NCBI GenBank assembly: GCA_024277375.1
Contig: JAJRVD010000053.1
Span: forward strand, 8,680 to 72,679
From: Candidatus Omnitrophota bacterium
Lineage (GTDB): Bacteria > Omnitrophota > Gorgyraeia > Tantalellales > Tantalellaceae
DNA length: 64,000 nucleotides
Reading direction: 5' to 3'
The position numbers and the translations under genes were made by a program. This document shows, in pieces, positions 34,525 to 56,306 of the stretch. The notes under the pieces were generated by a model, which did no database searches, was not told the DNA's origin, and saw nothing but the letters and a program-made list of their open reading frames with translations. Positions within the stretch are counted from its first letter, which is position 1. The number at the start of each line of letters is the position of its first letter.

Positions 34525-34526
34525 GT

Positions 34527-35585: not shown

Positions 35586-35588
35586 ACT

Positions 35589-39677: not shown

Positions 39678-41899
39678 CGGATGATCTACATTTTTTTAAA
39701 GATATACATATATCGAGGACTCAAAAAGGCGCGAGGTTCCTGAATATATTCGCAGACTTTCGTCGGGCGGCAAAAAATAACAGGGTACTGTTCTTTTTGT
39801 TTTTAAGCGCGACTGTTTTTACGTCAATAAGTACAGCGAAATTTCTGGGGGCTCTTTTGGGGACGGTGTTCTCTTTTTCTGATCAGATCATGATCTTTGA
39901 AGTTGTTTTGATGCTATTTTGCCTGGCCTGTTTAAAGGGGGCTGTAAAGATATCATCCAGGTTCAGGTGCAGGATGGATGTGAGCATAAGGGACAGTTGG
40001 TTTTTTCTGTTCGCGTTTAACGTGTATTTTGTTACTTTTTTGCCATTTTTTACGAATGCTCCTGTTCTAGGGTTTCTTGTTTCAAGCTTAGCTGTTGCTG
40101 GTACGTTTTCTGTGCTTTATGTCTTTTACGTTAAGAAAATAGCCGTCAAAAAACAACCGGATCTCGAAATACCCGGTACTGTCAAAGCGGATGATCCGGT
40201 GGACTTTATGGTTTCGGGATCGCATACGCGTGAAAAGGTACAGATAAACGGAGATACTCGAGACGCGTTCCTGATGGATATAGACGGAAAAATTAAAATG
40301 GAACTCCCCCCTGATGCAAAAAAAATAAAATTCGCGATTGGCGTAAGAGAATCGATAAAAAAACCAGCGTATAATGCTGTTATCATAAAGGTGTCAGAGC
40401 TGAACGTGGATGGTGAGGAAAATCTTATATATTCGAAATATTTGGAGACGTCACCCGATAATAATACGCGTTCATGGTCAGAAGTGTCTGCCGATCTTGT
40501 TGGGCAGGATCCGTCGAGATCGCGACATATCGTGGTGAAAGTGGAAGCTTCCGGCAATGGGGCTCCTCTGGACGGGGATGAGCGAAGATATTGTTTTTCC
40601 GGACCGCGTCTTTCGGGGAAAAGTAAACCCAGAAAGGTAATTCTTATTGTGGCTGACGCGGTGAGGTCGGATCATGTCGGGTGCTACGGATATGGTCGTC
40701 CGATAACACCGAATATCGATAGTTTGGCGAAGGACGGTGTCAGTTTTGATACGGCTTTTACTCAAGGGCAATTGACGCTTCCTTCATTCATGTCGATGTT
40801 GACGGGAATGTATCCGACATCGCACCACGTGTATCATAGTCAGCACTACAGTATGCTGGGTGAGGCCACCGCGACATTGCCGGAAATATTGCGCAAAAAC
40901 GGATTTGTGACCAGAAGCTATTTTACTCATAGAAGGTTGATGTCTCATTTTGGTTTCGCGAAAGGATTCGATTCGCATCTTTTCAGGCAGTATGATAAAG
41001 AGTGGAATATCGCTACCGCGGATGATGTAACAAATAAAGCTCTTGATATGTTGGAATTCCACAAAGATGATGATCTTTTCCAGATGATACACTTCTTTGA
41101 TACGCATCAGCCTTGTGACCCGCCGGCACCTTTTTCTGAGGTTTTCGACAAAACATATGGCAGGAAGATCATTAAAGACGTTCGGCATGAGTTGATGAAG
41201 GGTAAGAAAACAGGATTTGATGAAGCGGACCTTAATAACTTGATCGCGAGATATGATACTGAGATATCCCGCGTGGATATGAAAATAGGTATATTAATGG
41301 ATCGCTTGAAGAGGGAAGGGCATTATGAGGACGCGATGATCATAGTTACAGCCGATCATGGTATGTTGTTGAACGATCAAGGGAGTTTGACGGATATGAC
41401 CCTGTTCGACGAGATCGTGAAGGTACCTTTCATTGTTAAATTTCCTGAATCTGCCGAGGTGTCCAAAGGTGTCCCTGTTGAGGACAGTGTTATCGAGGCG
41501 AACATAGATATAATGCCTACGGTACTTGATGTATGTGGCATAGATGTGCCCCCAACCGTTCAGGGTAAAAGTGTTTTTCCTTTAGCGAAGGGGGAGGGAT
41601 CAATGAAGGAGTATGCTATTTCGGAATCATTATTTGATGATATTTATTCGGTATCGCTGAGGGATCAGCGATACCGGTACACTTTTAAGACAGAATTCGA
41701 CATATTGAAGTTCAATAACTATAGGGAGTCGCGTACGGAGGAACATGTTTTTAAAGCAGACGCGAGGATGCCAGAGTCGGATGTGGACCAAAACGAAAAA
41801 GCTACTTTTGTAAATAAGTACAAAACTGTGGTAGAACAGCATATAAAACAGAGTTTGGATATGAACAACAATAGTAAATGGAGGAAAGATGGATTTTAA
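39674..41899 (+). CDS. LtaS/phosphoglycerol- or phosphoethanolamine-transferase-like membrane enzyme (sulfatase fold, Thr nucleophile)
   Basis: Five N-terminal TM segments plus an extracytoplasmic sulfatase-fold domain: VILIVADAVRSDHVGCYGYG ... LTLPSFMSMLTG ... TADHG. Thr replaces the Cys/Ser formylglycine site. Confidence 0.6.
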   Translation: MTDDLHFFKDIHISRTQKGARFLNIFADFRRAAKNNRVLFFLFLSATVFTSISTAKFLGALLGTVFSFSDQIMIFEVVLMLFCLACLKGAVKISSRFRCRMDVSIRDSWFFLFAFNVYFVTFLPFFTNAPVLGFLVSSLAVAGTFSVLYVFYVKKIAVKKQPDLEIPGTVKADDPVDFMVSGSHTREKVQINGDTRDAFLMDIDGKIKMELPPDAKKIKFAIGVRESIKKPAYNAVIIKVSELNVDGEENLIYSKYLETSPDNNTRSWSEVSADLVGQDPSRSRHIVVKVEASGNGAPLDGDERRYCFSGPRLSGKSKPRKVILIVADAVRSDHVGCYGYGRPITPNIDSLAKDGVSFDTAFTQGQLTLPSFMSMLTGMYPTSHHVYHSQHYSMLGEATATLPEILRKNGFVTRSYFTHRRLMSHFGFAKGFDSHLFRQYDKEWNIATADDVTNKALDMLEFHKDDDLFQMIHFFDTHQPCDPPAPFSEVFDKTYGRKIIKDVRHELMKGKKTGFDEADLNNLIARYDTEISRVDMKIGILMDRLKREGHYEDAMIIVTADHGMLLNDQGSLTDMTLFDEIVKVPFIVKFPESAEVSKGVPVEDSVIEANIDIMPTVLDVCGIDVPPTVQGKSVFPLAKGEGSMKEYAISESLFDDIYSVSLRDQRYRYTFKTEFDILKFNNYRESRTEEHVFKADARMPESDVDQNEKATFVNKYKTVVEQHIKQSLDMNNNSKWRKDGF

Positions 41900-42878
41900 G
41901 ATCATAGTGACATTGGGACCCGCTATATTGAATGAAGAAAAACTCGCGGAGATAGCGCAGCATGGTTCTTGTCTGTTTAGGCTCAACGGAGCTCATACGG
42001 ACCCGGAAAATGTAGATAAAGTAGTCGAACTTGTCAGGGGAGTTCTGCCTGAAGCGAAATTCATGCTTGATCTGCCAGGTAATAAGGTCAGACTGAGTGG
42101 TTTGAGTGAGCCGTTGAGATTGGTCAAGGATGAGTATATCGATATCCATGAGTATCAGCTAAACTTTCCGGAATTCTATCGCTATATTAAACCGGGCGAG
42201 ATCGTTCTTGCTCATGATTCTATTTATCGACTGGAAGTCGTGGAAGTAAAAGGTAAGACCATCAGATTTCTTTCGCATTCTGACGGCATACTTTTAAGTC
42301 GAAAGGGTTTACATGTAAAAGGTGTGAGTGATAGTCTGCCGTTTTTGTTCGATAGGGACCTGGCATTGATCAAGAGCGCATGTGAATGTAAGCTGGACTA
42401 TTTAGCGCTTTCTTTTGTTCGGAACGCCGATGATATTCGTTTTGCCAAGGAGATGGTGAGCAAATATAACGCGGACGAGTGTGAACTCATCTCTAAAGTT
42501 GAAACATCCGCCGCTGTTGAAAATCTTGACGAAATTTTAACGGAGATAAACGCAATTTTGATAGATCGAGGCGATCTATCAGCTGACATAGGGATACATA
42601 ATCTTGCGTGTCATCAGGAAAATATAATAAGCGCTGCCAAAAAAGCGGGAAAAAAGATATATCTGGCGACACAATTCCTTAAAAATATGGAAAAACATCC
42701 GCTGCCGTTGATCGCTGAAACGTTGGACTTGCATAAGACACTGAAAGCGGGGATTAGCGGAATACAACTGTCCGAAGAAACAGCTGTGGGAGCGTATCCC
42801 GTCCAATGTGTCGAATATGTGTTTAAAACCCTTGAAGGGATCCGTAACGAGGTTATTCCGGCCGGAGATAAGATATGA
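41889..42878 (+). CDS. Pyruvate-kinase-like barrel-domain protein (A+B domains only; no C-terminal regulatory domain)
   Basis: KIIVTLGPA ... MLDLPGNKVRL ... LISKVETSAAVENLDEILTEINAILIDRGDLSADIG ... IQLSEETAVGAYP parallels PK motifs (TIGPAS / MLDTKGPEIR / ISKIEN ... ARGDLG ... LSGETAKG). Confidence 0.6.
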   Translation: MDFKIIVTLGPAILNEEKLAEIAQHGSCLFRLNGAHTDPENVDKVVELVRGVLPEAKFMLDLPGNKVRLSGLSEPLRLVKDEYIDIHEYQLNFPEFYRYIKPGEIVLAHDSIYRLEVVEVKGKTIRFLSHSDGILLSRKGLHVKGVSDSLPFLFDRDLALIKSACECKLDYLALSFVRNADDIRFAKEMVSKYNADECELISKVETSAAVENLDEILTEINAILIDRGDLSADIGIHNLACHQENIISAAKKAGKKIYLATQFLKNMEKHPLPLIAETLDLHKTLKAGISGIQLSEETAVGAYPVQCVEYVFKTLEGIRNEVIPAGDKI

Positions 42879-43627
42879 GATCCGTTAAAGAGCTGAGAGC
42901 TAAATGTCAGGCGGGCAAGGAAGGATCAGATACGTGGTACGGCCGTTGTTTTGCCAGAAAAATATCGATCTATTTTACGATCGCTTTTATCAAGCTGGGT
43001 ATAAGAGCTAATGTTGTAACCGGGATGTTCCTGCTAAGTGGTATTGTTGCCGCGTGTCTTTTTGCCATTGGCACAAAAGAGAGTATTTTAGCAGGCGCTC
43101 TGATGCTACAATTATGGTATATACTGGATCATTCTGACGGCGAGGTAGCCAGAAATAATAATGAAACATCTTTAACCGGGATTTACTATGATTATATTAT
43201 TCATTACATTGTTCATCCCATGGTATTTTTTGGAATCGGATTTGGTGTTTCTAGAGCAATAGGGAATGTGAACTATTTATTCCTTGGAGTTGCCGGAGCT
43301 TTCGCGATAATGCTTTTAAGTCTCGTTTCAGATCTTAAGGATATGGTTTTGTTTAGAGCTCACATAGCTTATTCCGGAGACGAGGGGGTCAAGGGCAGTG
43401 GTAAGGGCGAAAGGTCCTTTGGCAGAAAGATCTTTTCGGGTGGTCATCTGTTGTGTACCTTTCCGGTAATTATGAATCTGATAACTATTGCCGCTATTGT
43501 TGATTTTGTTTTCAATAAATACGTGATGTTGTATGTTTTAGCGTCTTACGCTGTTTTGATAAATATTGTTTGGATAATGAAGGTTATAGTTTTTATACTG
43601 GGAAAAAAAATGGATCACGAAGGATGA
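42875..43627 (+). CDS. CDP-alcohol phosphatidyltransferase family protein
   Basis: DHSDGEVAR ... G ... D ... D matches D-x2-DG-x2-AR-x8-G-x3-D-x3-D. Polytopic. Confidence 0.7.
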   Translation: MRSVKELRAKCQAGKEGSDTWYGRCFARKISIYFTIAFIKLGIRANVVTGMFLLSGIVAACLFAIGTKESILAGALMLQLWYILDHSDGEVARNNNETSLTGIYYDYIIHYIVHPMVFFGIGFGVSRAIGNVNYLFLGVAGAFAIMLLSLVSDLKDMVLFRAHIAYSGDEGVKGSGKGERSFGRKIFSGGHLLCTFPVIMNLITIAAIVDFVFNKYVMLYVLASYAVLINIVWIMKVIVFILGKKMDHEG

Positions 43628-44424
43628 TCCTTAGAAAAGGAGTTGATGTGAAGGCCATAATTATAGCGGCAGGTAGAGGCAAAAGGATGAAGCGTTTGAC
43701 GGATGATATCCCGAAATGTCTTCTGGATTTTAATGGCAGGAAGTTGTTGGATATTCAACTTGCCGCGTTGAGGCATAACGGGATAGAGGACATATCCATA
43801 GTAGTGGGGTATAAGAAAGAAAAGATCAAATATCCGGAATTGAAATATTATGTAAATGACAGGTATGAACACAATAATATTCTACATTCGTTATTATACG
43901 CGGAAAATGAGATGAATGACGGGTTTATAGCGAGTTATTCGGATATTATCTACGATAAAACCGTTATTAGAAAGCTATGTGAAAGTAAAGCTGATATATC
44001 GATCGTAGTTGATACCGATTGGAGGGGGTATTACGATGGAAGGGTTGGCCACCCTGTAGAAGAGGCCGAAAACGTTGTTTTTGATCCTGAAGGCCGGGTT
44101 CTTAACATAGGTAAGATATTGCCTGACAAGGATGCCGCGCATGGTGAATTTTTAGGCATATTTAAATGCACAAAAAAAGGTGCCCTTATATTTAAGGAGC
44201 ATTTTAACAGCTTAAAGGAAAAATTTGCTGGTAAAACTTTTCAAAGGGCAAAGGTGTTCGAAGAAGCGTATGTGACGGATATGGTACAGGATCTGGTCGA
44301 TTCCGGGATACCTGTACATTGTGTTAAGATCGAAGGCGGCTGGAAGGAAATTGATACCATCGATGATTATGAAAAAGCGGTAATTGATCTTTCAAAGGAA
44401 GAACAAAAGGCGCAGTTCGCATGA
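43624..44424 (+). CDS. LicC/PntC-like nucleotidyltransferase (phospho-alcohol or phosphonate cytidylyltransferase). Alternative GTG start 43648.
   Basis: KAIIIAAGRGKRM NTP-transferase G-loop. Size (~260 aa) and architecture resemble LicC. Confidence 0.6.
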   Translation: MILRKGVDVKAIIIAAGRGKRMKRLTDDIPKCLLDFNGRKLLDIQLAALRHNGIEDISIVVGYKKEKIKYPELKYYVNDRYEHNNILHSLLYAENEMNDGFIASYSDIIYDKTVIRKLCESKADISIVVDTDWRGYYDGRVGHPVEEAENVVFDPEGRVLNIGKILPDKDAAHGEFLGIFKCTKKGALIFKEHFNSLKEKFAGKTFQRAKVFEEAYVTDMVQDLVDSGIPVHCVKIEGGWKEIDTIDDYEKAVIDLSKEEQKAQFA

Positions 44425-45296
44425 TAACGAAGTTAAGCTTCATACTGATTATTGTCTCGGGCCTGATCCATCCTTTATGGAATATGCTTTTAAAAAGAAG
44501 CCGGGATAAGGTGATATTTTATTTGAATATACACCTCATTTTTACGGTACTGTTCAGCTTTGTTCTGTTCAAGTACCCGGTAAAGGATATAACGCTTTTA
44601 GGTTGGGGGTTTGTGCTTTTGTCGGCTTTTGCGCACTTTTTTTATCAGATGTTCTTGTGCCGTACGTATGAACTGGGGGATATGTCCTTGACGTATCCTA
44701 TTGTGAGATCTTCTCCGGTATTTGTTCTTTTAATGGGGGTAATGTTTTTAAGAGAAATGCCTTCGAAGACGGCTCTTTTAGGAGTTTGTATTGTTGTTCT
44801 CGGGGTTCATGTTATAAATCAGAAACAGTTATCCCTAGTTGGGCTTTTGTCGAGATGGGGCCATATGGATAAAAAGGTAATAGCGGTCGCGTGCCTGACA
44901 GCTATCGCGTCCGCGTGTTATTCGATAATTGATAAGAGGGGTGTTTTATTGATAGATCCCGTACTGTTCTTTTATCTCTTTTTTTCTGTTAGCGGTTTTA
45001 TGTTTTTGGGATATTTATTGACTCTTAAGGATCGAAGGAAAAAGTATTTTGAGATACTGCGAAAGGATAAGTTTAAGATCGTTCTGGCGGCTATTTTAGA
45101 GTTTTCGTCATATGTTTTAATACTGTACGCGTTCCGCATTTCAAAAGTCGCGTATGTAGTCGCGCTTCGGCAGATAAGTGTAGTGTTCGGGGTTTTATAT
45201 GGCAGTTTGTTCTTAAAGGAGAACTATGGTAGGGTAAGATTTGCGGGTGCGGTAACAATATTTATCGGAATATTTTTAATAACCGCGTTTGGATGA
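44421..45296 (+). CDS. EamA/DMT-family transporter (LicB-like)
   Basis: Ten predicted TM segments and two EamA-like halves. Confidence 0.6.
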   Translation: MITKLSFILIIVSGLIHPLWNMLLKRSRDKVIFYLNIHLIFTVLFSFVLFKYPVKDITLLGWGFVLLSAFAHFFYQMFLCRTYELGDMSLTYPIVRSSPVFVLLMGVMFLREMPSKTALLGVCIVVLGVHVINQKQLSLVGLLSRWGHMDKKVIAVACLTAIASACYSIIDKRGVLLIDPVLFFYLFFSVSGFMFLGYLLTLKDRRKKYFEILRKDKFKIVLAAILEFSSYVLILYAFRISKVAYVVALRQISVVFGVLYGSLFLKENYGRVRFAGAVTIFIGIFLITAFG

Positions 45297-45325: not shown

Positions 45326-46528
45326 ATGAGTAAGAAAAATGAAGAAAATTTGGTTTTATATCCGGGGATGGCAGGGCTTACGAGGGATATGATAGATCGC
45401 ATGAAAGCGGATGGGTCGGAGCTGCTCTCAGTTGATATTATGTTGACCCAAAAATGCAATTTTAAGTGTATTTATTGTTATGCCGAAGCCGGTCCGCAAA
45501 GGGTTCATCAACTTACCATGACCGAGGCAAAGAGTATAGTTAACGATGCTGTGGATATGGGCGTGAAGATACTGAACATGCAGGGAGGTGAACCCTTGAT
45601 ATGGCATCCCGACGATTGGGAAGGAAAGGGTGGCGAAGCTTTTTTTCATATAGTTGAGTATATAAGAGATCTGTACGCGGAAAGAAAACTTCCGCTTGAC
45701 CTGGTTAGCTTTACTGATGTCGCGATCATCACCGAAGAGAAAGCCAAACGGCTCGTTAAATTGGGTGTGGCTTTGTGTTGCAAACTCGATTCGATCGAGG
45801 AGGAAGTACAGGATAAATTGTTGGGGGTTCCTGGTGGCGCTAAAAAAATGAGGGATGGGTATCAACATTTGATAAACGCGGGGTATGGCCGGGACGATAT
45901 GCCGGCGATCTCAACGAATACGGTCGTTACTACTTTGAATTATGATGGAGTTCCCGAGGTTTTCAGATGGTCCAGAAATCATAATTTTCGACCGTTCATA
46001 ATTCCGGTACATGTTCACGGAACGGCCCAGGAGAACGCTTCTATGATGTTGTGTGGTAAACCGTCAGGTGGTACTCTGGATGCCGGGGACATTAAAAAAC
46101 TATTTGAAAATCTTGCCGAGATAGACGGAAAAGAATTTGATATTCATTGGAAGGCGGAAACCCCGTGGGTAGAGAACAAGGCATGTTCCAGGCATTTAGG
46201 AGGTGTTCACGTAAGGGCGGACGGGAAAGTAATACCATGTTCGGAAGCTCCGGACCAGTGGGCGCTTGGAGATATCAGAAAGGAATCTTTCAAGGATATA
46301 GTGATGTCGGAGAAGGTGAAAAAATTCAGAAATATTTATTCGGAATTACATGATCATTCGAAATGTTCTCCTGTAAATTGTCCGGCAGCAAAAGAAGGAA
46401 GATGTTATGGTTGTCGAACTCGGGCGTATGATGATTCAGGATTTGATGCTGATGGTAATTTTGACGTTGCACGGTTAGATCCGGAAGCGTTTTTCGCCGG
46501 AGATCCGGCATGTTGGAGGGAAGCCTAA
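45326..46528 (+). CDS. Radical SAM protein with C-terminal SPASM/twitch-like Cys-rich domain
   Basis: CNFKCIYC (Cx3Cx2C) near the N-terminus. C-terminal CSPVNCPAAKEGRCYGCRTRAY cysteine cluster. Confidence 0.7.
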   Translation: MSKKNEENLVLYPGMAGLTRDMIDRMKADGSELLSVDIMLTQKCNFKCIYCYAEAGPQRVHQLTMTEAKSIVNDAVDMGVKILNMQGGEPLIWHPDDWEGKGGEAFFHIVEYIRDLYAERKLPLDLVSFTDVAIITEEKAKRLVKLGVALCCKLDSIEEEVQDKLLGVPGGAKKMRDGYQHLINAGYGRDDMPAISTNTVVTTLNYDGVPEVFRWSRNHNFRPFIIPVHVHGTAQENASMMLCGKPSGGTLDAGDIKKLFENLAEIDGKEFDIHWKAETPWVENKACSRHLGGVHVRADGKVIPCSEAPDQWALGDIRKESFKDIVMSEKVKKFRNIYSELHDHSKCSPVNCPAAKEGRCYGCRTRAYDDSGFDADGNFDVARLDPEAFFAGDPACWREA

Positions 46529-46603
46529 CGGGTAGCAGGTTTTAGGTGAAAGGTTTATGGGGCGCGGAATAAAGAACCCGGAGTACTCTCCGGCTTCTTC
46601 TAA

Positions 46604-46640
46604 CGTAGGAGCGGCCTCTGGCCGCGAAGGATTTTGTTCA
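46604..46640 (+). terminator. GC hairpin (GCGGCC-TCT-GGCCGC) followed by GGATTTTGTT; a copy of short repeat family C
   Basis: A second hairpin, CCGGAG-TACT-CTCCGG, sits at 46577..46594. Both lie downstream of the radical SAM-SPASM gene. Confidence 0.4.
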
Positions 46641-46714
46641 TATCAATTATTCATAGATGCAGGGATGACATAGGTTGCGGAATATGATATCACACAAAAA
46701 AAATGAGGTAAAAA

Positions 46715-48337
46715 ATGAAAAAAAGAGCAAAATTACGAAGTTTTATAGAAAAAGGTGAACTCTTCAAGATAGTGGGAGCTCATAACGGTTTAACGGCCAA
46801 GTTGGTGGCCGAAGCCGGGTTTGACGGGGTTTGGGCATCAGGTTTTGAGATATCAAGCTCACATGCGGTTCCGGACGCTAATATTCTCACTATGACGGAT
46901 TATTTGAACGCCTCCGCTGAAATGGCATCGACGGTATCGATCCCCGTGATCTCGGATTGTGATACCGGTTACGGGAACTCGAATAATGTCATACATATGG
47001 TCCAGAAATATGAGGCTGCCGGTATCGCGGCTGTCTGTATTGAGGATAAAAAATTCCCGAAAGTAAATAGTTTTATCCCCGGACGCCAGGAACTGGCGCC
47101 AATAGCGGAATTTGTCGGGAAAATAATGGCGGCTAAGAACGCGCGGGTTACAAAAGATTTTATGGTTTTTGCCAGGGTGGAAGCTTTGATCGCCGGATGG
47201 GGGATGGATGAGGCTTTAAGGAGAGCGGAAGCGTATGTGGATGCCGGTGCCGACGGGATATTTATCCATTCGAAGTCGAAAACTTCGGATGAAATAACCG
47301 CTTTTTGTGAGGTATGGAACAAAAGAGCGCCGATCCTGATCTGTCCTACGACGTATCCGATCAGTGAGGATGAGATGAAAAATCTGGGCGTAAGTATTGT
47401 CATTTACGCGAATCATGGGCTCCGGGCGGCGATAAAACATATGGGTGAAATTTTACGACACATTAAGGAGAACGGTCTTAGCGGCGTCGATTCCAAAATT
47501 GTTTCTATGGCGGAAGTCTTCCGCCTTCAGGGCATGCATGTCATGAAACAACAGGAAAAGAAATACCTGAAGACGGAGGGAGGATCCGTTAAGGCAATAA
47601 TACCCGCTGCCGGGGCTAAGATGGACAGCTCTTTTAAAGAGATACTGGAGGATAGGCCTGTAGGAATGCTTGATATAAACGGAAAATTATTATTTCAGAG
47701 GAATATTGAAACGTTAAATTCCGCGGGGGTGCAGGATATCAATATAATTGTCGGGTATGGCGGGGATAAGGTCTCTCTTGAAGGTGTTAATATTATTAAA
47801 AATGAGGATTTTCAGAAAAAAGGAATTATGCAGTCCATCATCAAAGGTATGGATTCCATATCCGATAAAAATGTGATACTATACTCCGATATTATTCTGG
47901 ACCAGGGTCTTTTAGAAAGACTCCTTAAAAAGGAAGGAGATATAATTCTTGTTGTGGATAGCACTTACAGAAAGACGCAATCCCGGAACAAAGAACTTGA
48001 ACTGGTCATGGCTGAGTATTCTTCACATGACAACCGTCGTACTATTGATGTGAACAGAAAGAACTTAGTGCGGAAAACCGGGAAAAACCTTTCTGAAGAA
48101 GACGCAAATTTTGAGTTTATCGGCACGGCTCTTTTATCAAAAAAGGGCATGGAACTTTTGGTTAAAGAATATGAAAACGCGAAATTTCCCGAGCCGCTTT
48201 CTTTTACGGATCTTATCCAGCACTTAGTAGGTGCCGGACATGAAGTTCTTGCTTATGAAGTGACTAGCGGATGGATGGAGATACATAATTTTTCTGACTA
48301 TAAAAAAGCATGTTCAATATTTTGCGGGGGGAAATGA
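46715..48337 (+). CDS. Phosphoenolpyruvate mutase fused to a C-terminal nucleotidyltransferase domain
   Basis: The N-terminal ~290 aa match PEP mutase blocks (LRSFIEKGELFKIVGAHNGLTAKL ... VISDCDTGYGN ... AAVCIEDKKFPKVNSF). The C-terminal ~250 aa have the AIIPAAGAKMDSSFKEILEDRPVGMLDING NTP-transferase fold. Confidence 0.8.
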   Translation: MKKRAKLRSFIEKGELFKIVGAHNGLTAKLVAEAGFDGVWASGFEISSSHAVPDANILTMTDYLNASAEMASTVSIPVISDCDTGYGNSNNVIHMVQKYEAAGIAAVCIEDKKFPKVNSFIPGRQELAPIAEFVGKIMAAKNARVTKDFMVFARVEALIAGWGMDEALRRAEAYVDAGADGIFIHSKSKTSDEITAFCEVWNKRAPILICPTTYPISEDEMKNLGVSIVIYANHGLRAAIKHMGEILRHIKENGLSGVDSKIVSMAEVFRLQGMHVMKQQEKKYLKTEGGSVKAIIPAAGAKMDSSFKEILEDRPVGMLDINGKLLFQRNIETLNSAGVQDINIIVGYGGDKVSLEGVNIIKNEDFQKKGIMQSIIKGMDSISDKNVILYSDIILDQGLLERLLKKEGDIILVVDSTYRKTQSRNKELELVMAEYSSHDNRRTIDVNRKNLVRKTGKNLSEEDANFEFIGTALLSKKGMELLVKEYENAKFPEPLSFTDLIQHLVGAGHEVLAYEVTSGWMEIHNFSDYKKACSIFCGGK

Positions 48338-49452
48338 TACAGGCAGGAAATCTAATAAGTGAGTTTGATAAATACGGATTTGGGCCATATATCGAGGTTC
48401 CTTGCAGTATCCTGGGACCGATAATCGCGAATCTTATTAATAAAAGACCCGAAGAGCTGATAAATCCGACTAATGAAGCGATCGCGATGGGTATAGCCAG
48501 TGGATCTTTTATGGCTACGGGTAAAATTCCGGTTGTACTTATGCAAAATTCAGGTTTGTGTAACGCGTTGAACTCTATCACTTCTTTGAATCAAATATAC
48601 GATATTCCCATTCTGATGATGATCTCGTGGAGGGGAGAACCCGGAGCGAAAGACGCGCCTGAACATCTTGTTGTCGGAGAGCGGATGAAACAACTGCTCG
48701 AAGTGTTTGATATCCCATATGTTGTTTTGTCTGAAGACCGATTGAAGGAAGACATTGTTCGGTTAGCTGAAATAGTTGAGGAACAAAAGCGTCCAGTGGC
48801 GTTGATCATACGGCACGGGCTTTTTGAAAAAGAAGACATAGTTCTTCCGGATAGCCCGCATACCATGTATAGGGATGAGGCCATCAATATTATTATTGAC
48901 GCCGGGATCGGAAAATCCTTTTTTGTTACGACCAACGGGTTTATAAGTAGAGAGGCTTTTAATGACCTTACCGGTAAGGGAGAGGAAGATAAAAACCCCC
49001 TTTTTTATATGTTAGGATCAATGGGGCACGCTCTGCCCGTGGGGATGGGATTAGCCAGAGGTATAAACGCGGATAAAAAGATCATCGTTTTAGACGGAGA
49101 CGGGGGATGTCTTATGCATTCGGGAGCTATGGCTTCGGTTAATGATGGGAACTGCAAAAATCTCGTTCATATTGTTTTAGATAATTCCGTTTACGGGTCT
49201 ACGGGGGGGCAACCCACCATTTCGGGGAAAATAGATTTTAAAAAGATCGCTTCAGGGTGTGGATATAAGAACGTATTTCGATTTAATGATCCTGAGAAAA
49301 TGAAAGGCGAACTTCCGAGGATACTTGACGAAGATGGCCCGACATTCGTACACGTACGTGTAAATAGTGTTTCACGTGAAGCCGGACCGAGGATATCCAC
49401 AAAATATTCGTGTAAAGACATCAAAGAAAGATTTATGGAAAAATTAAAGTAA
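48334..49452 (+). CDS. Phosphonopyruvate decarboxylase (ThDP-dependent)
   Basis: ThDP-binding GSMGHALPVGMGLA ... LDGDGGCLMH motif. ATGA overlap with the PEP mutase gene. Confidence 0.75.
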   Translation: MIQAGNLISEFDKYGFGPYIEVPCSILGPIIANLINKRPEELINPTNEAIAMGIASGSFMATGKIPVVLMQNSGLCNALNSITSLNQIYDIPILMMISWRGEPGAKDAPEHLVVGERMKQLLEVFDIPYVVLSEDRLKEDIVRLAEIVEEQKRPVALIIRHGLFEKEDIVLPDSPHTMYRDEAINIIIDAGIGKSFFVTTNGFISREAFNDLTGKGEEDKNPLFYMLGSMGHALPVGMGLARGINADKKIIVLDGDGGCLMHSGAMASVNDGNCKNLVHIVLDNSVYGSTGGQPTISGKIDFKKIASGCGYKNVFRFNDPEKMKGELPRILDEDGPTFVHVRVNSVSREAGPRISTKYSCKDIKERFMEKLK

Positions 49453-49453
49453 T

Positions 49454-50566
49454 ATGAAGTACCGTCATAAACTGGTATCCATAGTTATTGCGTTGGTAAT
49501 ATCGGTATCCGTTACCGAAGTCGGGCTGAGGATGCTTCGGTTAGTTCCGCATGAAGGATATCCTGACGGTATGTATCAAAAAGACGAGCTGCTGGGATAT
49601 AGCTTGACGCCTAATTTTGAGGGGAAGTTGATAAAACATGAATTCGCAACGAAGTTCCGGACAAATTCGATCGGGATGAACGATGTAGAATACGGGCAAA
49701 AAAATGAAGATGATTATAGGGTATTAGCTTTGGGAGCGTCTTTTGCCTGGGGAGCATACGGGGCCGGGTTGAACGAGACATTTTTAAAAAAACTGGAGCA
49801 GAAACTTAATACGGAACATAACAATACGAATTATCAGGTCATGAACGCGGGTGTGCCGGGGTACGCGCTCGATAGGCAGTTGTTATGGTTAAAGAACAGG
49901 GGTCTGGCATTCAAACCGGATATGCTTTTGGTCACGGTTTACGCGGGAAATGTTTTTCACGAGGCGGCTATTAAACGTGCGGTAACGGTTGACGAAAGGG
50001 GACAACTGGTTTCACAAAAACATATCATCAAAGGTGGTTTTGCCTTTTTTGTAAAGATAAGAGATTTTTTCATTAAACATTCTCATTTCTACAGAATGGC
50101 AGAAAATAAATGCGCTAATCTTTTGAGTAGATTTGTTGAGAGAGAGTTTCTTGGGAAAATGCAGAATTGGGATAAAGGTAAGAATAACGTATTTATGATC
50201 CGTTCCTCGGATATGGTGACGGGAGAGATAAATACGGCATTAGATATGCTGGGAGAGATAAATGACATCGCTAAAGAAAATAAGTTACCGATCTTTGTAG
50301 TGATAATACCATCTAAATATCAGGTGGATGATTACTTTAAAGAGCTTTTCATTAAAGACAACGGCATGTTTGCGGGAACTTACGACATGGAAAAACCGCA
50401 AAAAATACTAGCGAAATGGGGTAAAGAGAACGGAGTTGAGATAATCGATCCGATCAGGGAATTCAGAGACAAAAATCAGGGAGGGGGGCTTTATTGGAGA
50501 ATAAATCCCCATTTGAATAAAAGGGGAAATGAGATCCTTTCCGGAACGATCTTTGGGTCGATATAA
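49454..50566 (+). CDS. SGNH/GDSL-like hydrolase-fold protein with N-terminal TM (AlgX/AlgJ/DltD-like)
   Basis: N-terminal TM. LALGASFAWG (block I Ser) and a C-terminal NPHLN (D/H-like block). Weak call. Confidence 0.4.
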   Translation: MKYRHKLVSIVIALVISVSVTEVGLRMLRLVPHEGYPDGMYQKDELLGYSLTPNFEGKLIKHEFATKFRTNSIGMNDVEYGQKNEDDYRVLALGASFAWGAYGAGLNETFLKKLEQKLNTEHNNTNYQVMNAGVPGYALDRQLLWLKNRGLAFKPDMLLVTVYAGNVFHEAAIKRAVTVDERGQLVSQKHIIKGGFAFFVKIRDFFIKHSHFYRMAENKCANLLSRFVEREFLGKMQNWDKGKNNVFMIRSSDMVTGEINTALDMLGEINDIAKENKLPIFVVIIPSKYQVDDYFKELFIKDNGMFAGTYDMEKPQKILAKWGKENGVEIIDPIREFRDKNQGGGLYWRINPHLNKRGNEILSGTIFGSI

Positions 50567-50616: not shown

Positions 50617-51576
50617 GTGAAACTGATCATTCAGATTCCATGTTATAACGAGGAAGAAACGCTATCGGTAACATTAAAGGATCTGCCTAAGCACATAGAG
50701 GGGATCGATGTTATAGAAACATTGATCATCGATGATGGCAGTTCTGACGGTACGGTGAAGAAAGCAGGGGACTTGGGAGTTGATCATATTCTCAAATTGC
50801 CGGGGCATAGAGGATTGGCGGAGGCTTTTAGACGCGGGCTTGAAAGATGCCTGGAATTGCAGTCAGATATTATCGTCAATACTGACGGTGACAATCAGTA
50901 CAATGGTGGGGATATTAAGAAACTGGTGGAGCCCATACTATCAAAAAAAGCGGATATTGTAATTGGTTGCCGGGAAATGTCAGCTATCAAACATTTTTCT
51001 GTGATAAAAAAAATACTTCAGAAAGTAGGTAGCTATATCGTGCGCAAGATATCCAATACCAATATTCCCGATACTACCAGCGGGTTCAGAGCATATTCGC
51101 GGGAAGCAGCTTTGCGGATAAATGTTTTTTCAAATTATACATACACCCTTGAAACACTAATTCAGGCCGGAAGAAAAGAGATCCCCGTAACTCATGTTGA
51201 TATTTCGACTAATGAAAAACTAAGGGAATCCAGATTGATGAAAAGCATGTTCGGTTATGTTACCAGATCCGTATCGACGATATCGCGTATATATTTAATG
51301 TACGAACCAATGAAAAGTTTTTTCTGGTTGGGGATGGTTCCCATATCGTTAAGCATTATACTGATAGTGAGGTTCGCGATAAGCTATTTTACCCGTGTTC
51401 ATGGCGGGCATGTTCAGTCCCTTATTATTGCCGCGATGTTGTTTATCGTCGGCGGGATGATAGTTCTTATAGGTCTTTTGGGGGACGTTATATCGGCTAA
51501 CAGAAAACTTAATGAAGAAACATTGTATAGGCTTAAAAAAAACGCAATGTCCAGGTCGTTGGAAAGCAAAGAGTAA
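50617..51576 (+). CDS. GT2 polyprenyl-phosphate glycosyltransferase (DPM1/ArnC-like) with C-terminal TM helices
   Basis: IIQIPCYNEEE, LIIDDGSSDGT and NTDGDNQY (DxD). Two C-terminal TM segments. GTG start with RBS ggagggaaaag. Confidence 0.75.
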   Translation: MKLIIQIPCYNEEETLSVTLKDLPKHIEGIDVIETLIIDDGSSDGTVKKAGDLGVDHILKLPGHRGLAEAFRRGLERCLELQSDIIVNTDGDNQYNGGDIKKLVEPILSKKADIVIGCREMSAIKHFSVIKKILQKVGSYIVRKISNTNIPDTTSGFRAYSREAALRINVFSNYTYTLETLIQAGRKEIPVTHVDISTNEKLRESRLMKSMFGYVTRSVSTISRIYLMYEPMKSFFWLGMVPISLSIILIVRFAISYFTRVHGGHVQSLIIAAMLFIVGGMIVLIGLLGDVISANRKLNEETLYRLKKNAMSRSLESKE

Positions 51577-51597
51577 TGATCGTTCGGGGAGAATGTA

Positions 51598-52287
51598 ATG
51601 GCGAATACAAAAGATTTTATGTACAAAGGACGAGACGCGGGGCATAAAGAGTTTTTTAGTATGTTGATCTATCGACCCATAGCTAATTTTGTGCTGAATA
51701 AGCTGGTTAGGCACATGAAAGTTACACCTAACCAGATAAGTCTCTTTTCTCTCCTGATGGTGTTCGTAGGATGTGTTGTATTTGTTAAAAATCCGTATCC
51801 ATATTCACTCGTTTTTGTGATATTCCTACATCTTGGTTATCTTTTTGATGTTTTAGACGGACAATACGCGAGATATAAAGGACTTGAGTCAAAGTATGGA
51901 CAATGGTTTGACGCTTTTCTTGATACTATCAAAGGAGCTTTGATCTTTGTGTCTTTGTCTTATAAAGCGTACCTCATCGACCATGAACCGATGGTATTGT
52001 TATGGGGCATGGTAGCTCTTATTCAAAGTTTTCTGGCGTTTTATGCTTTGAATTCCAAAGAGCAGGTTATTGAGGGGAGTTTTTCCATAAAACTGAAAAG
52101 GAAAGTATATGTAGGATATGAGGCTTCGCTCTACTGGGCAATATCATTGGTCGTGATATCCAACAGGTTATATTATGGGCTCTTGTTTCTCGGCGCGGTT
52201 TGCGCTGTAACATGGCTAAGAGTGTGTGTTGTGCTTAGCAGAAATTGTAGGGTAAATAAAAAAATGATCAAGGATGAAAATGGATAG
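51598..52287 (+). CDS. CDP-alcohol phosphatidyltransferase family protein (second copy)
   Basis: FDVLDGQYARYKGLESKYGQWFDAFLD is a perfect D-x2-DG-x2-AR-x8-G-x3-D-x3-D motif. Confidence 0.7.
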   Translation: MANTKDFMYKGRDAGHKEFFSMLIYRPIANFVLNKLVRHMKVTPNQISLFSLLMVFVGCVVFVKNPYPYSLVFVIFLHLGYLFDVLDGQYARYKGLESKYGQWFDAFLDTIKGALIFVSLSYKAYLIDHEPMVLLWGMVALIQSFLAFYALNSKEQVIEGSFSIKLKRKVYVGYEASLYWAISLVVISNRLYYGLLFLGAVCAVTWLRVCVVLSRNCRVNKKMIKDENG

Positions 52288-53824: not shown

Positions 53825-53843
53825 CGACGTTAAAGGTAAAACG

Positions 53844-54791
53844 ATGTTCAAAAAAATATTCAAATGTATTGTACCGTATGTCATATTGATCGTTCTGATG
53901 GTGATGTTTACCGGTTTTTTGCTTGAGAATAAAGATACTCTGGCAAAACTTTCGGAAGTATCGCCGCTTCACATATTGGGTGTAGCGATCTTTATTGTTT
54001 TATTCATCGTTGTTAATGCGTACTCGACAAAAGAATTGACGAAAGCTTTTGGTGTGGATCTATCCGTTAAGGAATGGTTGGGTTTGTCCTGTATTACCGT
54101 AATGCTTAATTACTTAATGCCGGCAAGGTCAGGCGCTGTGCCGAGAGCATTGTATATGAAACGAAAATATAATTTTTCACGTACTTTATTCCTCTCATCA
54201 TATCTCGGCTTGTATGTTTTTGCGCTTGCTGTTAACGCGTTTTTCGGGATGATATTGTGTGTTGCCTATTACGCGAGATTTGGAGTGCTGCAAAAGGGAT
54301 TGATGGTGTTTTTTATTATCTTTATCTTCCTGGCCGGAGGTTGTATCGCGATAAGCAGATGGTTTGGAAAAAGGAACACGGGGTCCGGGATTTTTCATAA
54401 AGTTATAGAAGGCCTGGAGTATTTCCGGAAACAGAAAAAACTTTTGATTAAATTGCTTTTTTTGAACCTGCTTAGTATGCTTTTTCTGGCAGGCAGGTTC
54501 TGGGTGGCATATAGTGCTATCAATGTTTCACCTAGCCCGATCGCTGTGCTTATCGTGGCAAATGTTGTCGTTTTTTCTTTTGTTGTAAGCATTACGCCGG
54601 CTAATCTCGGGATCAAAGAGACGTTCATAACGCTTGTTTCCGGGATTATCGGGTTGTCAACCATTAATGGCGCGTTAATGGCCGTAATAGACAGGGGTGT
54701 TAGTTTTCTCGTCGTTTTTGTCCTTGGAATAGTTTTTAGCGTGATCTTGTTTCGCGAGATATATCCAAGGCAGGCCGAAAGGACAGGATAA
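53844..54791 (+). CDS. YbhN/UPF0104-like (lysylphosphatidylglycerol-synthase TM-domain-like) membrane protein
   Basis: About 8 TM segments. It has the size and architecture of the flippase-like domain family that often accompanies DPM1-like GT2s. Weak call. Confidence 0.45.
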   Translation: MFKKIFKCIVPYVILIVLMVMFTGFLLENKDTLAKLSEVSPLHILGVAIFIVLFIVVNAYSTKELTKAFGVDLSVKEWLGLSCITVMLNYLMPARSGAVPRALYMKRKYNFSRTLFLSSYLGLYVFALAVNAFFGMILCVAYYARFGVLQKGLMVFFIIFIFLAGGCIAISRWFGKRNTGSGIFHKVIEGLEYFRKQKKLLIKLLFLNLLSMLFLAGRFWVAYSAINVSPSPIAVLIVANVVVFSFVVSITPANLGIKETFITLVSGIIGLSTINGALMAVIDRGVSFLVVFVLGIVFSVILFREIYPRQAERTG

Positions 54792-56292: not shown

Positions 56293-56306
56293 GGGAGAGA
56301 GGAACG

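What the first reader, a model, noticed from the sequence alone, without database searches (positions are those of the whole stretch)
45326..46528. Stand-alone radical SAM-SPASM enzyme inside the phosphonate module
It has a Cx3Cx2C motif at residues ~44-51 and a C-terminal Cys cluster (CSPVNCPAAKEGRCYGCRTRAY) typical of auxiliary [4Fe-4S] SPASM/twitch domains. SPASM enzymes usually modify peptides or form formylglycine in sulfatases. Neither sulfatase-fold protein in this locus has a C/S-x-P-x-R site, and no precursor peptide is evident. The substrate is therefore probably a small molecule, such as the phosphonate or a sugar. That would be unusual chemistry for this subfamily.
Basis: partly seen in the sequence, partly recalled or inferred. 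Interest (0 to 1): 0.55.

Follow-up and report, generated by a model that had tools for sequence, protein, structure and literature searches.

The report
Phosphonate-pathway radical SAM/SPASM enzyme family
This gene encodes an uncharacterised iron-sulfur radical enzyme that, in every related genome fragment long enough to judge, sits inside the gene set that makes carbon-phosphorus compounds for cell-surface decoration, so it probably performs a new, still unidentified chemical step on those compounds.

Summary
ORF 45326-46528 (+) is a real 400-aa radical SAM enzyme with a full 7-Cys SPASM domain. It is not an anSME, PqqE, MftC, AhbD/NirJ or viperin orthologue, because it fails every curated cutoff. 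It has no RRE domain and no conserved precursor ORF.

It defines a tight orthologous family ("A": at least 57% identity, a single 50%-identity cluster among 1.84 billion representatives). Of 31 non-redundant loci, 22 carry PEP mutase and/or phosphonopyruvate decarboxylase within 4 kb. The other 9 are truncated contigs.

A cytidylyltransferase is almost always adjacent. In a sister family (B, about 31% identity, also in Ppm-Ppd clusters) that same transferase is fused to the radical SAM enzyme. An APS-kinase-like gene often flanks it.

Family A loci almost never encode the usual phosphonoacetaldehyde-consuming enzymes (AEP transaminase 1/31, Fe-ADH 0/31).

Best reading: a phosphonate-tailoring enzyme acting on the two-carbon phosphonate, probably as its CMP conjugate, and possibly a new post-Ppd branch point. 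The reaction itself is unknown. No publication describing it was found.

The parts
45326..46528 (+). Radical SAM / SPASM enzyme (family A), the finding itself. It has CX3CX2C at C44/C48/C51 and a GGEP motif at 87-90. The beta4 motif is LCCKLDS (C151, C152, K153, D155). The SPASM cysteines are C287, C305, C347, C352, C360, C363 and C396.
43648..44424 (+). LicC/PntC-like cytidylyltransferase ('NT284'). The listed ORF starts at TTG 43570, but the likely true start is GTG 43648. Its orthologue is fused to the sister-family rSAM-SPASM in P0318/P0354.
44421..45296 (+). EamA/DMT membrane transporter. Its best curated match is TIGR03340, 'phosphonate utilization associated putative membrane protein' (138 bits, below cutoff). 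It lies directly upstream of the rSAM gene in 17 of 38 loci.
46715..48337 (+). PEP mutase (EDKKFPKVNS motif) fused to a C-terminal NTP_transf_3 cytidylyltransferase domain.
48310..49452 (+). Phosphonopyruvate decarboxylase. It passes the TIGR03297 equivalog cutoff (328 bits against 312.5).
49454..50566 (+). 370-aa protein of unknown function. It occupies the slot after Ppd where an AEP transaminase or ADH usually sits. It has no family hit and is not conserved in related loci.
42875..43627 (+). CDP-alcohol phosphatidyltransferase-family membrane enzyme (a), a candidate transferase for the CMP-phosphonate head group.
51598..52287 (+). Second CDP-alcohol phosphatidyltransferase-family enzyme (b).
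54802..56292 (+). B12-binding radical SAM enzyme (class B; weak matches to HpnJ, PhpK and BchE models). Relatives occur in 14 of 38 family-A loci.
56289..57005 (+). Class I SAM methyltransferase. Relatives occur in 10 of 38 loci.
41889..42878 (+). Pyruvate-kinase barrel-only protein. It is an accessory part and is not conserved at sequence level across loci.
39674..41899 (+). Membrane-anchored sulfatase-fold protein with Thr (TLPSF) at the nucleophile position. It is a probable phospho(no)-group transferase or hydrolase and not a formylglycine sulfatase.
50617..54791 (+). GT2 glycosyltransferase (50617-51576), PMT_2/ArnT-like transferase (52274-53824) and LPG_synthase_TM flippase-like protein (53844-54791). 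These form the downstream surface-decoration machinery, which is syntenic with the Omnitrophota locus L005.

Best explanation
The gene encodes a three-cluster radical SAM/SPASM enzyme. It belongs to a tight orthologous family that is genetically dedicated to the PEP mutase / phosphonopyruvate decarboxylase 'phosphonyl tailoring' pathway. It is a small-molecule tailoring enzyme, not a peptide or protein maturase.

Proposed mechanism (inferred, not shown):
1. Ppm and Ppd make phosphonoacetaldehyde.
2. The adjacent LicC/PntC-like cytidylyltransferase converts the two-carbon phosphonate (a non-amine species such as the aldehyde hydrate or 2-hydroxyethylphosphonate) into a CMP conjugate.
3. The radical SAM cluster (C44/C48/C51) reductively cleaves SAM.
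4. The 5'-deoxyadenosyl radical abstracts a hydrogen from C1 or C2 of the phosphonate side chain.
5. The substrate radical is resolved by electron transfer through the two auxiliary [4Fe-4S] clusters. The active-site-facing Cys151 and Lys153 possibly help as H-atom donor and phosphonate ligand.
6. This yields a modified CMP-phosphonate.
7. In some relatives an APS-kinase-like enzyme then 3'-phosphorylates that product. CDP-alcohol-phosphotransferase, LicD or sulfatase-fold transferases put the head group on a glycan or lipid.

In the window's family the enzyme occupies the place normally held by the AEP transaminase or the HEP-forming alcohol dehydrogenase. It is therefore the best candidate for a new post-Ppd branch point. 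The exact product is not known.
For: Domain anatomy:
- Radical_SAM plus SPASM are both above Pfam cutoffs, and the seven SPASM cysteines are invariant.
- The AF2 model (pLDDT 77, pTM 0.82) is nearest to anSME, SkfB, CteB and SuiB, followed by the nucleotide-binding cores of viperin, BlsE, MoaA and DesII.

Synteny:
- There are 31 non-redundant family-A loci. Of these, 22 have Ppm and/or Ppd within 4 kb and the other 9 are short contigs. No locus with long flanks lacks them.
- L038 carries overlapping Ppm-Ppd-NT-rSAM genes.
- In phage-like loci a non-homologous PF01467 cytidylyltransferase takes the NT position, and its stop overlaps the rSAM start.

Rosetta stone:
- The 722-aa P0318/P0354, seen on at least 24 contigs, fuses an NT that is 44% identical to the window NT (E 2e-71) to the sister-family rSAM-SPASM.

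Neighbouring and sister-family context:
- An APS-kinase-like gene lies directly next to the rSAM gene in L014/15/18 and L059.
- Sister family B occurs with PEP mutase within 8 kb in 4 of 5 contexts (Ppd also in 3) and family C lies 7.6 kb from a Ppd gene.

Missing usual enzymes:
- AEPT-like genes occur in 1/31 family-A loci and Fe-ADH-like genes in 0/31. There are none in the 64-kb window.
- The rSAM-coupled NTs have an invariant Tyr where AEP-specific PntC has Glu104, and the AEPT-linked NT of L045 has Glu at that position (PMC6697681).

Precedent:
- CMP conjugates are the true substrates of phosphonate tailoring enzymes. Fom1 makes CMP-HEP (PMC6697681). Fom3 then acts on CMP-HEP (my own knowledge).

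Against a peptide role:
- No precursor peptide and no RRE are present.
Against: There are no biochemical data. The substrate, the site of H-abstraction and the product are all inferred.

All five family-B contexts encode an Fe-ADH, and one family-A phage-like locus encodes an AEPT. So the enzyme does not universally replace those steps.

The fusion-bearing locus L046 shows no Ppm within 9 kb.

Gene order cannot tell whether the enzyme acts before or after cytidylylation.

Most characterised SPASM enzymes act on peptides. The similarity to nucleotide-binding rSAM cores is weak (E about 1e-5).

A housekeeping reductase or transaminase encoded elsewhere cannot be excluded.
Confidence: 0.6

Rival explanations
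1. The enzyme acts on free phosphonoacetaldehyde (or its hydrate), before cytidylylation, as the committed PnAA-consuming branch-point enzyme. Examples would be oxidation to phosphonoacetate or another C2 transformation. The neighbouring NT then activates its product.
For: Family-A loci lack an AEPT or Fe-ADH in 30/31 and 31/31 cases respectively. Li et al. describe 'post-Ppd other' neighbourhoods that have no known branch-point enzyme (PMC8942020). Many loci carry two NTs and two transferases, which fits an unmodified and a modified head group being activated separately.
Against: In L038 the gene order is Ppm-Ppd-NT-rSAM with overlapping genes. The fusion protein has the NT N-terminal to the rSAM domain. 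Family B always co-occurs with an Fe-ADH that already consumes PnAA. NAD-dependent aldehyde dehydrogenases already do the oxidation without radical chemistry (my own knowledge).
Confidence: 0.2
2. The enzyme tailors something other than the phosphonate: a nucleotide sugar, a nonulosonic acid or the cytidine nucleotide itself (viperin-, DesII- or BlsE-like). Its link to Ppm is only that both serve the same surface polymer.
For: Fold and sequence similarity to viperin, BlsE, DesII and MoaA cores. NeuB and CMP-NulO synthetase genes recur near these loci. NUDIX plus cytidylate kinase genes sit next to the NT in L003 and L046.
Against: The association is with Ppm/Ppd/NT specifically, at distances of 0-4 kb, while the sugar genes vary from locus to locus. 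In L038 the only NT in the four-gene operon must serve the phosphonate. Viperin and MoaA curated cutoffs are missed by a wide margin.
Confidence: 0.12
3. The enzyme is a RiPP or protein maturase (anSME-, sactisynthase- or PqqE-like) that modifies a peptide or one of the neighbouring enzymes.
For: The nearest solved structures are anSME, SkfB, CteB and SuiB. Most characterised SPASM enzymes act on peptides (my own knowledge).
Against: There is no conserved small ORF in 38 loci. There is no RRE-length N-terminal domain. There is no C/S-x-P-x-R sulfatase at a nucleophile position. All peptide-maturase NCBIfam models score far below cutoff. Ppm, Ppd and PntC are known to work unmodified in other organisms (PMC6697681).
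Confidence: 0.04

Closest known systems
Fom3 (cobalamin-dependent radical SAM methyltransferase of fosfomycin biosynthesis) with Fom1 CyTase
   Same: It is a radical SAM tailoring enzyme encoded in a Ppm-Ppd cluster together with a (Ppm-fused) cytidylyltransferase. Its real substrate is the CMP conjugate of a two-carbon phosphonate. This is the best functional analogy (PMC6697681 for Fom1; Fom3 from my own knowledge).
   Different: Fom3 is a class B enzyme with a B12-binding domain and no SPASM domain. The window protein has no B12 domain but has two auxiliary clusters. The chemistry is therefore unlikely to be methylation. A separate B12-rSAM gene is present in the cluster.
anSME (anaerobic sulfatase-maturating enzyme)
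   Same: It is the closest solved fold (TM 0.61-0.67). It has the same rSAM core plus a full SPASM domain with two auxiliary clusters that serve as an electron conduit.
   Different: Identity is only 17%, with 20-30 bits by sequence or profile. The substrate of anSME is a protein with C/S-x-P-x-R, and none is conserved here.
AhbD / NirJ / AhbC (tetrapyrrole-modifying rSAM-SPASM enzymes)
   Same: These are the best-scoring curated models (AhbD 71 bits, NirJ2 67 bits). They are small-molecule SPASM enzymes that perform oxidative decarboxylation or C-C cleavage.
   Different: The scores are about 7-fold below the 500-650 bit cutoffs. There are no heme or siroheme genes nearby.
Campylobacter jejuni MeOPN pathway (Cj1416 NT, Cj1417, Cj1415 APS-kinase-like 3'-kinase)
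   Same: The pathway logic matches: cytidylyl activation, then modification of the CDP/CMP-linked group, then 3'-phosphorylation by an APS-kinase homologue, then transfer to a glycan. JGI names the fused NT 'L-glutamine-phosphate cytidylyltransferase'. APS-kinase-like genes flank the rSAM gene.
   Different: The modifying enzyme there is an amidohydrolase acting on a phosphoramidate, not a radical enzyme acting on a C-P compound (my own knowledge).
Viperin / MoaA
   Same: These are rSAM cores that bind nucleoside triphosphates. They are among the best PDB sequence hits.
   Different: Curated cutoffs are not met (46 against 180 bits; 57 against 284 bits). Viperin has no SPASM domain.
PhnY*, HEPD, MpnS, HppE (O2-dependent iron enzymes that tailor AEP/HEP/HPP)
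   Same: They occupy the same pathway position: tailoring a C2/C3 phosphonate after Ppd.
   Different: These are unrelated folds that need O2. The window enzyme would be an O2-independent alternative (inference).

Membership tests
Radical SAM superfamily | CX3CX2C cluster motif near the N-terminus of a partial TIM barrel | tested here: met
   C44-x3-C48-x2-C51 is invariant in 33 sequences. PF04055 scores 50.7 bits against a 29.5 cutoff.
Radical SAM superfamily | GGE-type SAM-binding motif and a beta4 'SxDG'-like ribose motif | tested here: met
   G87-G88-E89-P90 are invariant. The K153-L-D155-S motif sits in predicted strand 149-153. The assignment of roles to these motifs is by analogy.
SPASM subfamily (two auxiliary [4Fe-4S] clusters) | PF13186 above its gathering score | tested here: met
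   42.9 bits against 21.5, covering residues 287-352.
SPASM subfamily (two auxiliary [4Fe-4S] clusters) | Seven-Cys motif CX9-15GX4C ... CX2CX5CX3C ... C | tested here: inconclusive
   Seven invariant Cys are present. The first half is canonical (C287-x12-G300-x4-C305). The spacing of the second half differs (C347-x4-C352-x7-C360-x2-C363 ... C396). Cluster content was not measured.
anSME | Orthology by sequence, and a C/S-x-P/A-x-R sulfatase substrate in the genome context | tested here: not met
   17% identity. E 0.003 and 20 bits over the SPASM region only. No anSME model is among the top NCBIfam hits. No sulfatase signature sits at a nucleophile position.
RiPP maturases (PqqE, MftC, AlbA, SkfB, sactisynthases) | Curated model cutoff, an RRE/PqqD-like leader-binding domain and an adjacent precursor gene | tested here: not met
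   PqqE scores 34 against 381, MftC 44 against 265, AlbA 43 against 850 and SkfB 37 against 300. Only about 40 residues precede the cluster motif. There is no conserved small ORF.
AhbD / NirJ | Curated equivalog cutoff | tested here: not met
   71 and 67 bits against 500.
Viperin / MoaA | Curated equivalog cutoff | tested here: not met
   46 against 180 bits and 57 against 284 bits.
Phosphonyl tailoring (Pnt) gene cluster (Rice et al. 2019) | PEP mutase with the EDKXXXXXNS motif | tested here: met
   EDKKFPKVNS is present in the 46715-48337 product. PEP_mutase Pfam E is 2e-59. TIGR02320 scores 310 against 319.6. The best PDB hit is a PEP phosphomutase, E 1e-96.
Phosphonyl tailoring (Pnt) gene cluster (Rice et al. 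2019) | Phosphonopyruvate decarboxylase | tested here: met
   TIGR03297 scores 328 bits against a 312.5 cutoff.
Phosphonyl tailoring (Pnt) gene cluster (Rice et al. 2019) | LicC/PntC-type cytidylyltransferase, fused to or near Ppm | tested here: met
   A fused NTP_transf_3 domain plus a stand-alone NT are present. The best PDB hits are LicC and PntC.
Phosphonyl tailoring (Pnt) gene cluster (Rice et al. 2019) | AEP transaminase (so that AEP is the head group) | tested here: not met
   No AEPT-like or Fe-ADH-like gene was found in the 64-kb window by tblastn with 2 AEPT and 3 ADH queries. The aminotransferases present are DegT-type sugar enzymes.
Class B (cobalamin) radical SAM, Fom3/PhpK-like | N-terminal B12-binding domain | tested here: not met
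   There is no PF02310 hit in this protein. The separate gene 54802-56292 does have one.

The most novel reading that the evidence does not exclude
The most consequential version is C1-C2 cleavage of CMP-phosphonoacetaldehyde or CMP-HEP to give CMP-methylphosphonate, with the invariant active-site Cys151 quenching the P-CH2 radical. That would be an MpnS-independent source of methylphosphonate, and hence of methane precursors, in anoxic, freshwater and marine settings. Family B occurs in marine Gammaproteobacteria MAGs, in sequences from Tara Oceans and in Woesearchaeota. Alternatives of similar novelty are anaerobic C1 hydroxylation (a PhnY*-like outcome) or dehydration to a vinylphosphonate.
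Probability: 0.1. Interest if true: 0.92.

Novelty: new variant of a known kind. Interest (0 to 1): 0.68.

Why it matters
Phosphonates make up a large share of marine dissolved organic phosphorus. They decorate many cell surfaces. Only seven early branch-point enzymes are known, and published inventories flag 'post-Ppd other' clusters as the place to look for new C-P chemistry (PMC8942020).

This result gives a concrete, conserved, experimentally tractable candidate enzyme for such clusters. The compact operon in L038 encodes PEP mutase, Ppd (as two subunit genes), the NT and the rSAM enzyme, and could be expressed directly.

It would be the first SPASM-type radical SAM enzyme assigned to phosphonate metabolism. 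It would also be an oxygen-independent counterpart of PhnY*, HEPD and MpnS.

Its presence on large phage-like contigs, next to the rest of a phosphonate pathway, suggests that viruses remodel host surfaces with phosphonates.

Tried and rejected
Searches that found nothing useful:
- A genome-contig scan with the single sequence found only one locus (L005, an Omnitrophota MAG).
- Two viral-contig scans gave no family member.
- The phage collection has no match. The plasmid collection has only 24-26% identity hits. The one inspected (Sinorhizobium pSmeRU11d) sits in an unrelated ATP-grasp/agmatinase context.
- The afdb50 fold library was unavailable.

The intergenic region:
- Rfam found nothing significant across 41-51 kb.
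- The 186-nt spacer after the gene folds no better than shuffles (z 0.37).
- It holds one terminator-like hairpin at 46578-46593, whose meaning is uncertain.

Leads that were dropped:
- The APS-kinase::rSAM-SPASM fusion in L038 looked like a second Rosetta stone. It is only 26% identical in the core and belongs to another clade.
- A cluster first taken for an AEPT in L010 and L024 turned out to be another protein. An AEPT is present only in L025/L040.
- NCBIfam naming of relatives P0084-P0096 gave no curated family.
- The last homologue search (family C profile) found no Campylobacter member. The link to the published Campylobacter 'radical SAM + APS kinase' ppm-ppd neighbourhood remains untested.

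Literature:
- Full-text searches for SPASM with PEP mutase or phosphonate biosynthesis returned nothing.
- Searches on radical SAM with PnAA, HEP or pepM returned only Fom3/PhpK-type work and the inventory paper.

Full report
OBSERVATION. The ORF 45326..46528 (+) encodes 400 aa. A strong ribosome-binding site (AAGGGAGGA) ends 7 nt before the ATG. Pfam finds Radical_SAM (residues 40-214, E 3e-13) and SPASM (287-352, E 5.9e-11), both above their gathering scores. The cysteines lie at 44/48/51 (CX3CX2C), 151, 152, 243, 287, 305, 347, 352, 360, 363 and 396. In an alignment of 33 homologues all of them except C243 are invariant. So are the GGEP motif (87-90) and many polar residues, including K153, D155, N198, H229, H231, R289, H290, R364 and R366. 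The first half of the SPASM signature is canonical (C287-x12-G-x4-C305). The second half keeps four Cys but with different spacing (Cx4Cx7Cx2C), followed by the terminal C396. That prediction was not measured.

WHAT IT IS NOT. None of 75 NCBIfam matches reaches its curated cutoff. The best are AhbD (71 bits against 500) and NirJ2 (67 against 500). MoaA, viperin, MftC, PqqE, AlbA and SkfB are all far below theirs. Sequence and profile searches of the PDB give only weak hits of 40 bits or less, to SkfB, viperin-like enzymes, MoaA, anSME and BtrN. An AlphaFold2 model (pLDDT 77, pTM 0.82) is closest to anSME (TM 0.61-0.67, 17% identity). SkfB, CteB, SuiB and TigE come next, then viperins, BlsE, MoaA and DesII. 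This is the generic rSAM-SPASM fold with no close structural relative.

Only about 40 residues precede the cluster motif, so there is no room for an RRE leader-binding domain. The flanking gaps are 29 and 186 nt. The single intergenic ORF (38 aa, 46557-46673) is not conserved. In a six-frame scan of 38 related loci, every recurrent small ORF lies inside a protein-coding gene in another frame. The 186-nt spacer has no Rfam match and no unusual fold.

The 741-aa sulfatase-fold neighbour has Thr (TLPSF) at the nucleophile position. The 479-aa NPP-like protein, 40 kb away, carries a chance SAPFR string upstream of its real PPITIP...TSG nucleophile motif. No sulfatase is conserved across relatives.

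THE FAMILY AND ITS CONTEXT. A search of 5.8 billion proteins returned 81 clusters, all at least 57% identical. They come from metagenomes and MAGs named Omnitrophota or 'Deltaproteobacteria'. An exhaustive profile search of 1.84 billion 50%-identity representatives collapses the family to a single representative at 766 bits. After two fragments, the score drops to 283 bits or less. I call this family A.

From 38 loci I derived 31 non-redundant ones at 95% protein identity. Of these, 22 contain PEP mutase and/or phosphonopyruvate decarboxylase within 4 kb of the rSAM gene. The remaining nine are short or truncated contigs. No locus with long flanks on both sides lacks them.

In the window, the Ppm has the diagnostic EDKKFPKVNS motif and a fused NTP_transf_3 domain. 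The Ppd passes its equivalog cutoff.

Other recurrent partners, counted over the 38 loci, are:
- a LicC/PntC-like cytidylyltransferase;
- an EamA transporter whose best curated match is a 'phosphonate utilization associated' membrane protein (17 loci), or instead a DUF2061 membrane protein (8 loci);
- a B12-binding radical SAM enzyme (14 loci);
- class I methyltransferases (10 loci);
- an APS-kinase-like gene (8 loci).

The closest locus with a name, L005 (an Omnitrophota MAG), shares the order NT-EamA-rSAM-Ppm::NT-Ppd-CDP-OH transferase-GT2-CDP-OH transferase-PMT_2-LPG_synthase_TM-MTase-GT4 with the window.

LINK TO NUCLEOTIDE ACTIVATION. Four observations tie the enzyme to the cytidylyltransferase.
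1. In L038 the genes Ppm, Ppd (split into alpha and beta), NT and rSAM follow one another with overlapping stops and starts. That NT is the only one present.
2. In phage-like loci (L001, L024, L040), and also in L019 and L033, the gene immediately upstream is a cytidylyltransferase of the unrelated PF01467 fold. In L001 and L040 its stop overlaps the rSAM start. Adjacency has thus been kept through a non-homologous replacement.
3. A sister family B (about 490-510 aa, 30-32% identical) shares the N-terminal PGMxG motif and the LCxKxD(S/T), NKxCxR and PCSE motifs. It contains a 722-aa protein, found on at least 24 contigs, in which the NT domain is fused to the rSAM-SPASM domain. That NT domain is 44% identical to the window NT over 254 residues (E 2e-71).
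4. An APS-kinase-like gene lies directly beside the rSAM gene in L014/L015/L018 and in the marine gammaproteobacterial MAG locus L059, which reads APSK-rSAM-NT-x-CT::Ppm-Ppd-FeADH.

In the Campylobacter O-methyl phosphoramidate pathway, an APS-kinase homologue 3'-phosphorylates the cytidine-linked donor after it has been modified (my own knowledge). JGI even names the fused NT after that pathway's cytidylyltransferase. Rice et al. showed that most Ppm genes are fused to or next to such transferases, that PntC makes CMP-AEP, and that Fom1 makes CMP-HEP (PMC6697681). Fom3 then acts on the CMP conjugate (my own knowledge). A CMP-linked substrate is therefore the most economical reading, although gene order cannot prove it.

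WHICH PHOSPHONATE. I ran tblastn with two AEP transaminases and three Fe-alcohol dehydrogenases taken from related loci. It finds no homologue in the 64-kb window. In family A it finds an AEPT in only one locus (L025/L040) and an ADH in none. The window's aminotransferases are DegT-type sugar enzymes that belong to a nonulosonic-acid and deoxysugar cluster. The gene after Ppd (49454-50566) has no family match and is not conserved.

In the rSAM-coupled NT family, the position of PntC Glu104 / LicC Asp105, which contacts the amine of AEP or choline (PMC6697681), is an invariant Tyr. The NT next to an AEPT in the archaeal locus L045 has Glu at that position, like PntC. The window pathway therefore probably does not use AEP.

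Family B differs. All five inspected contexts encode an Fe-ADH, and four of them show Ppm within 8 kb. Three (L041, L042, L046) also carry a phosphonate-binding-protein ABC transporter or a NUDIX/CMP-kinase pair. A third clade, C (P0085, 38% identical), lies in an archaeal AglB context 7-8 kb from Ppd-NT-AEPT-CDP-OH transferase.

Across the three clades, then, the PnAA-consuming enzyme varies (none, ADH or AEPT), while the rSAM-SPASM enzyme and an NT are present in every inspected context and Ppm or Ppd in all but L046.

MECHANISM (INFERRED). All well-studied SPASM enzymes use the auxiliary clusters to move an electron during resolution of a substrate radical, usually in a net two-electron oxidation (my own knowledge of anSME, BtrN, AhbD and peptide cross-linkers). 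I propose H-abstraction from C1 or C2 of the CMP-linked two-carbon phosphonate, followed by cluster-mediated resolution.

The beta4 motif is K-L-D-S where relatives have S-x-D-G. K153 is invariant in all three clades and C151 in all but one sequence compared. They lie two residues apart in predicted strand 149-153, so both should point into the barrel. K153 is a plausible phosphonate ligand and C151 a plausible H-atom donor. C152 is invariant only in family A.

Candidate outcomes are oxidation at C2, functionalisation at C1, dehydration, or C1-C2 cleavage. The data do not discriminate among them.

I give 0.6 to 'phosphonate tailoring enzyme acting on the CMP-linked or about-to-be-linked C2 phosphonate'. 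I give 0.2 to action on free PnAA as the branch-point step, 0.12 to a non-phosphonate small-molecule substrate, and 0.04 to a peptide or protein maturase.

COMPARISON AND NOVELTY. By membership the protein is a radical SAM/SPASM enzyme and nothing more specific. It fails the tests for anSME, RiPP maturases, AhbD/NirJ, viperin/MoaA and class B enzymes. By function it most resembles Fom3, a radical SAM enzyme that tailors a cytidylylated phosphonate, but it has a different cofactor set.

Li et al. list 'post-Ppd other' neighbourhoods, including a Campylobacter group flanked by 'radical SAM and adenylsulfate kinase' genes, as uncharacterised (PMC8942020). I found no paper that combines SPASM with PEP mutase or phosphonate biosynthesis, and none describing such an enzyme.

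I rate it a new variant of a known kind: a known enzyme architecture and a known pathway type, but apparently a new enzyme family and probably a new reaction. Interest is 0.68. The finding is directly testable with a compact operon and could reveal an oxygen-independent route to a new or environmentally important phosphonate head group.

Noticed in passing
L001/L002/L027, L024, L025/L040 (contigs of 44-135 kb; rSAM gene at 10001-11245 in L001): The family-A rSAM-SPASM gene sits beside a phage-type replication module, together with CT::Ppm, Ppd, a B12-rSAM, two LicD genes and (in L001) an APS kinase. The replication module includes a clamp loader (phrog_168, E 1e-59), PolB, primase, exonuclease and DNA invertase. 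These look like large phages or viruses carrying an entire phosphonate-decoration pathway.
   Followed up: partly
window 41889-42878; L043 4972-7782; L001 1815-2753: A pyruvate-kinase barrel without the C-terminal domain is encoded in the module. In L043 a PK domain is fused to PUA_2, ATP-sulfurylase and APS-kinase (936 aa). In L001 it is fused to a cytidylyltransferase. A PK-like domain therefore recurs with nucleotide and sulfate activation. Its role is unknown.
   Followed up: partly
L038 15753-17321: An APS-kinase domain is fused to a different rSAM-SPASM enzyme (26% identity to the window protein, in the core only) a few kb downstream of the family-A gene.
   Followed up: partly
window 43570-43650: The listed NT ORF starts at TTG 43570. 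A GTG at 43648 preceded by AAGGAG gives an N-terminus MKAIIIAAG that matches homologues. The true start is probably 43648.
   Followed up: yes
window 43648-44424 and 47588-48337; L045 486-1217: Both cytidylyltransferase copies in the window have Tyr-Ser-Asp where AEP-specific PntC has Glu-Ser-Asp. The AEPT-linked NT in L045 also has Glu-Ser-Asp. This may be a simple sequence marker that separates amine-type from non-amine phosphonate cytidylyltransferases.
   Followed up: partly
window 49454-50566: A 370-aa ORF directly after Ppd, in the slot usually taken by AEPT or ADH, has no Pfam or NCBIfam match except a sub-threshold GDSL hint. It has no homologue in the related loci.
   Followed up: partly
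window 39674-41899: This 741-aa protein has an N-terminal membrane region plus a sulfatase-fold domain with Thr (TLPSF) at the nucleophile site. Weak matches to LtaS and EptA-type transferases suggest a phospho(no)-group transferase rather than a sulfatase.
   Followed up: partly
window 4803-6242: This NPP/phosphodiesterase-family protein contains the string SAPFR (residues 39-43), which matches the C/S-x-P/A-x-R pattern by chance. Its real nucleophile motif is PPITIPAWMTMTSG, a few residues later.
   Followed up: yes
window 25449-36320; also L014, L038, L042, L046: Nonulosonic-acid genes (NeuB, PglD-like acetyltransferase, DegT, UDP-GlcNAc 2-epimerase, CMP-NulO synthetase, HisF/HisH-like pair) lie upstream in the window. 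NeuB and CTP_transf_3 genes recur near family A and B loci. The phosphonate may decorate a nonulosonic-acid-containing glycan.
   Followed up: no
window 54802-56292; P0118: A B12-binding radical SAM enzyme is a frequent partner (14 of 38 loci). Separately, an 807-aa protein in the representative library fuses an rSAM-SPASM enzyme to a B12-rSAM enzyme.
   Followed up: partly
L003 14875-16124; L046 6468-7741: A NUDIX hydrolase plus cytidylate kinase pair sits next to the NT in both a family-A and a family-B locus. This may serve CMP recycling or proofreading of CMP conjugates.
   Followed up: no
window 3004-4795: ATP-sulfurylase and an APS-kinase (49% identical to the L001 APS-kinase-like protein) are encoded at the far end of the same same-strand gene array.
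   Followed up: no
window 1-64000: Nearly all long ORFs are on the + strand (the exception is 22938-24998). GC skew is positive (+0.10 to +0.31) in every 2-kb bin.
   Followed up: no
window 46578-46593: A perfect 6-bp GC-rich hairpin (CCGGAG-TACT-CTCCGG) lies in the 186-nt spacer between the rSAM gene and Ppm. The pattern scan scored it as terminator-like on both strands. The spacer as a whole folds no better than shuffled sequence.
   Followed up: yes
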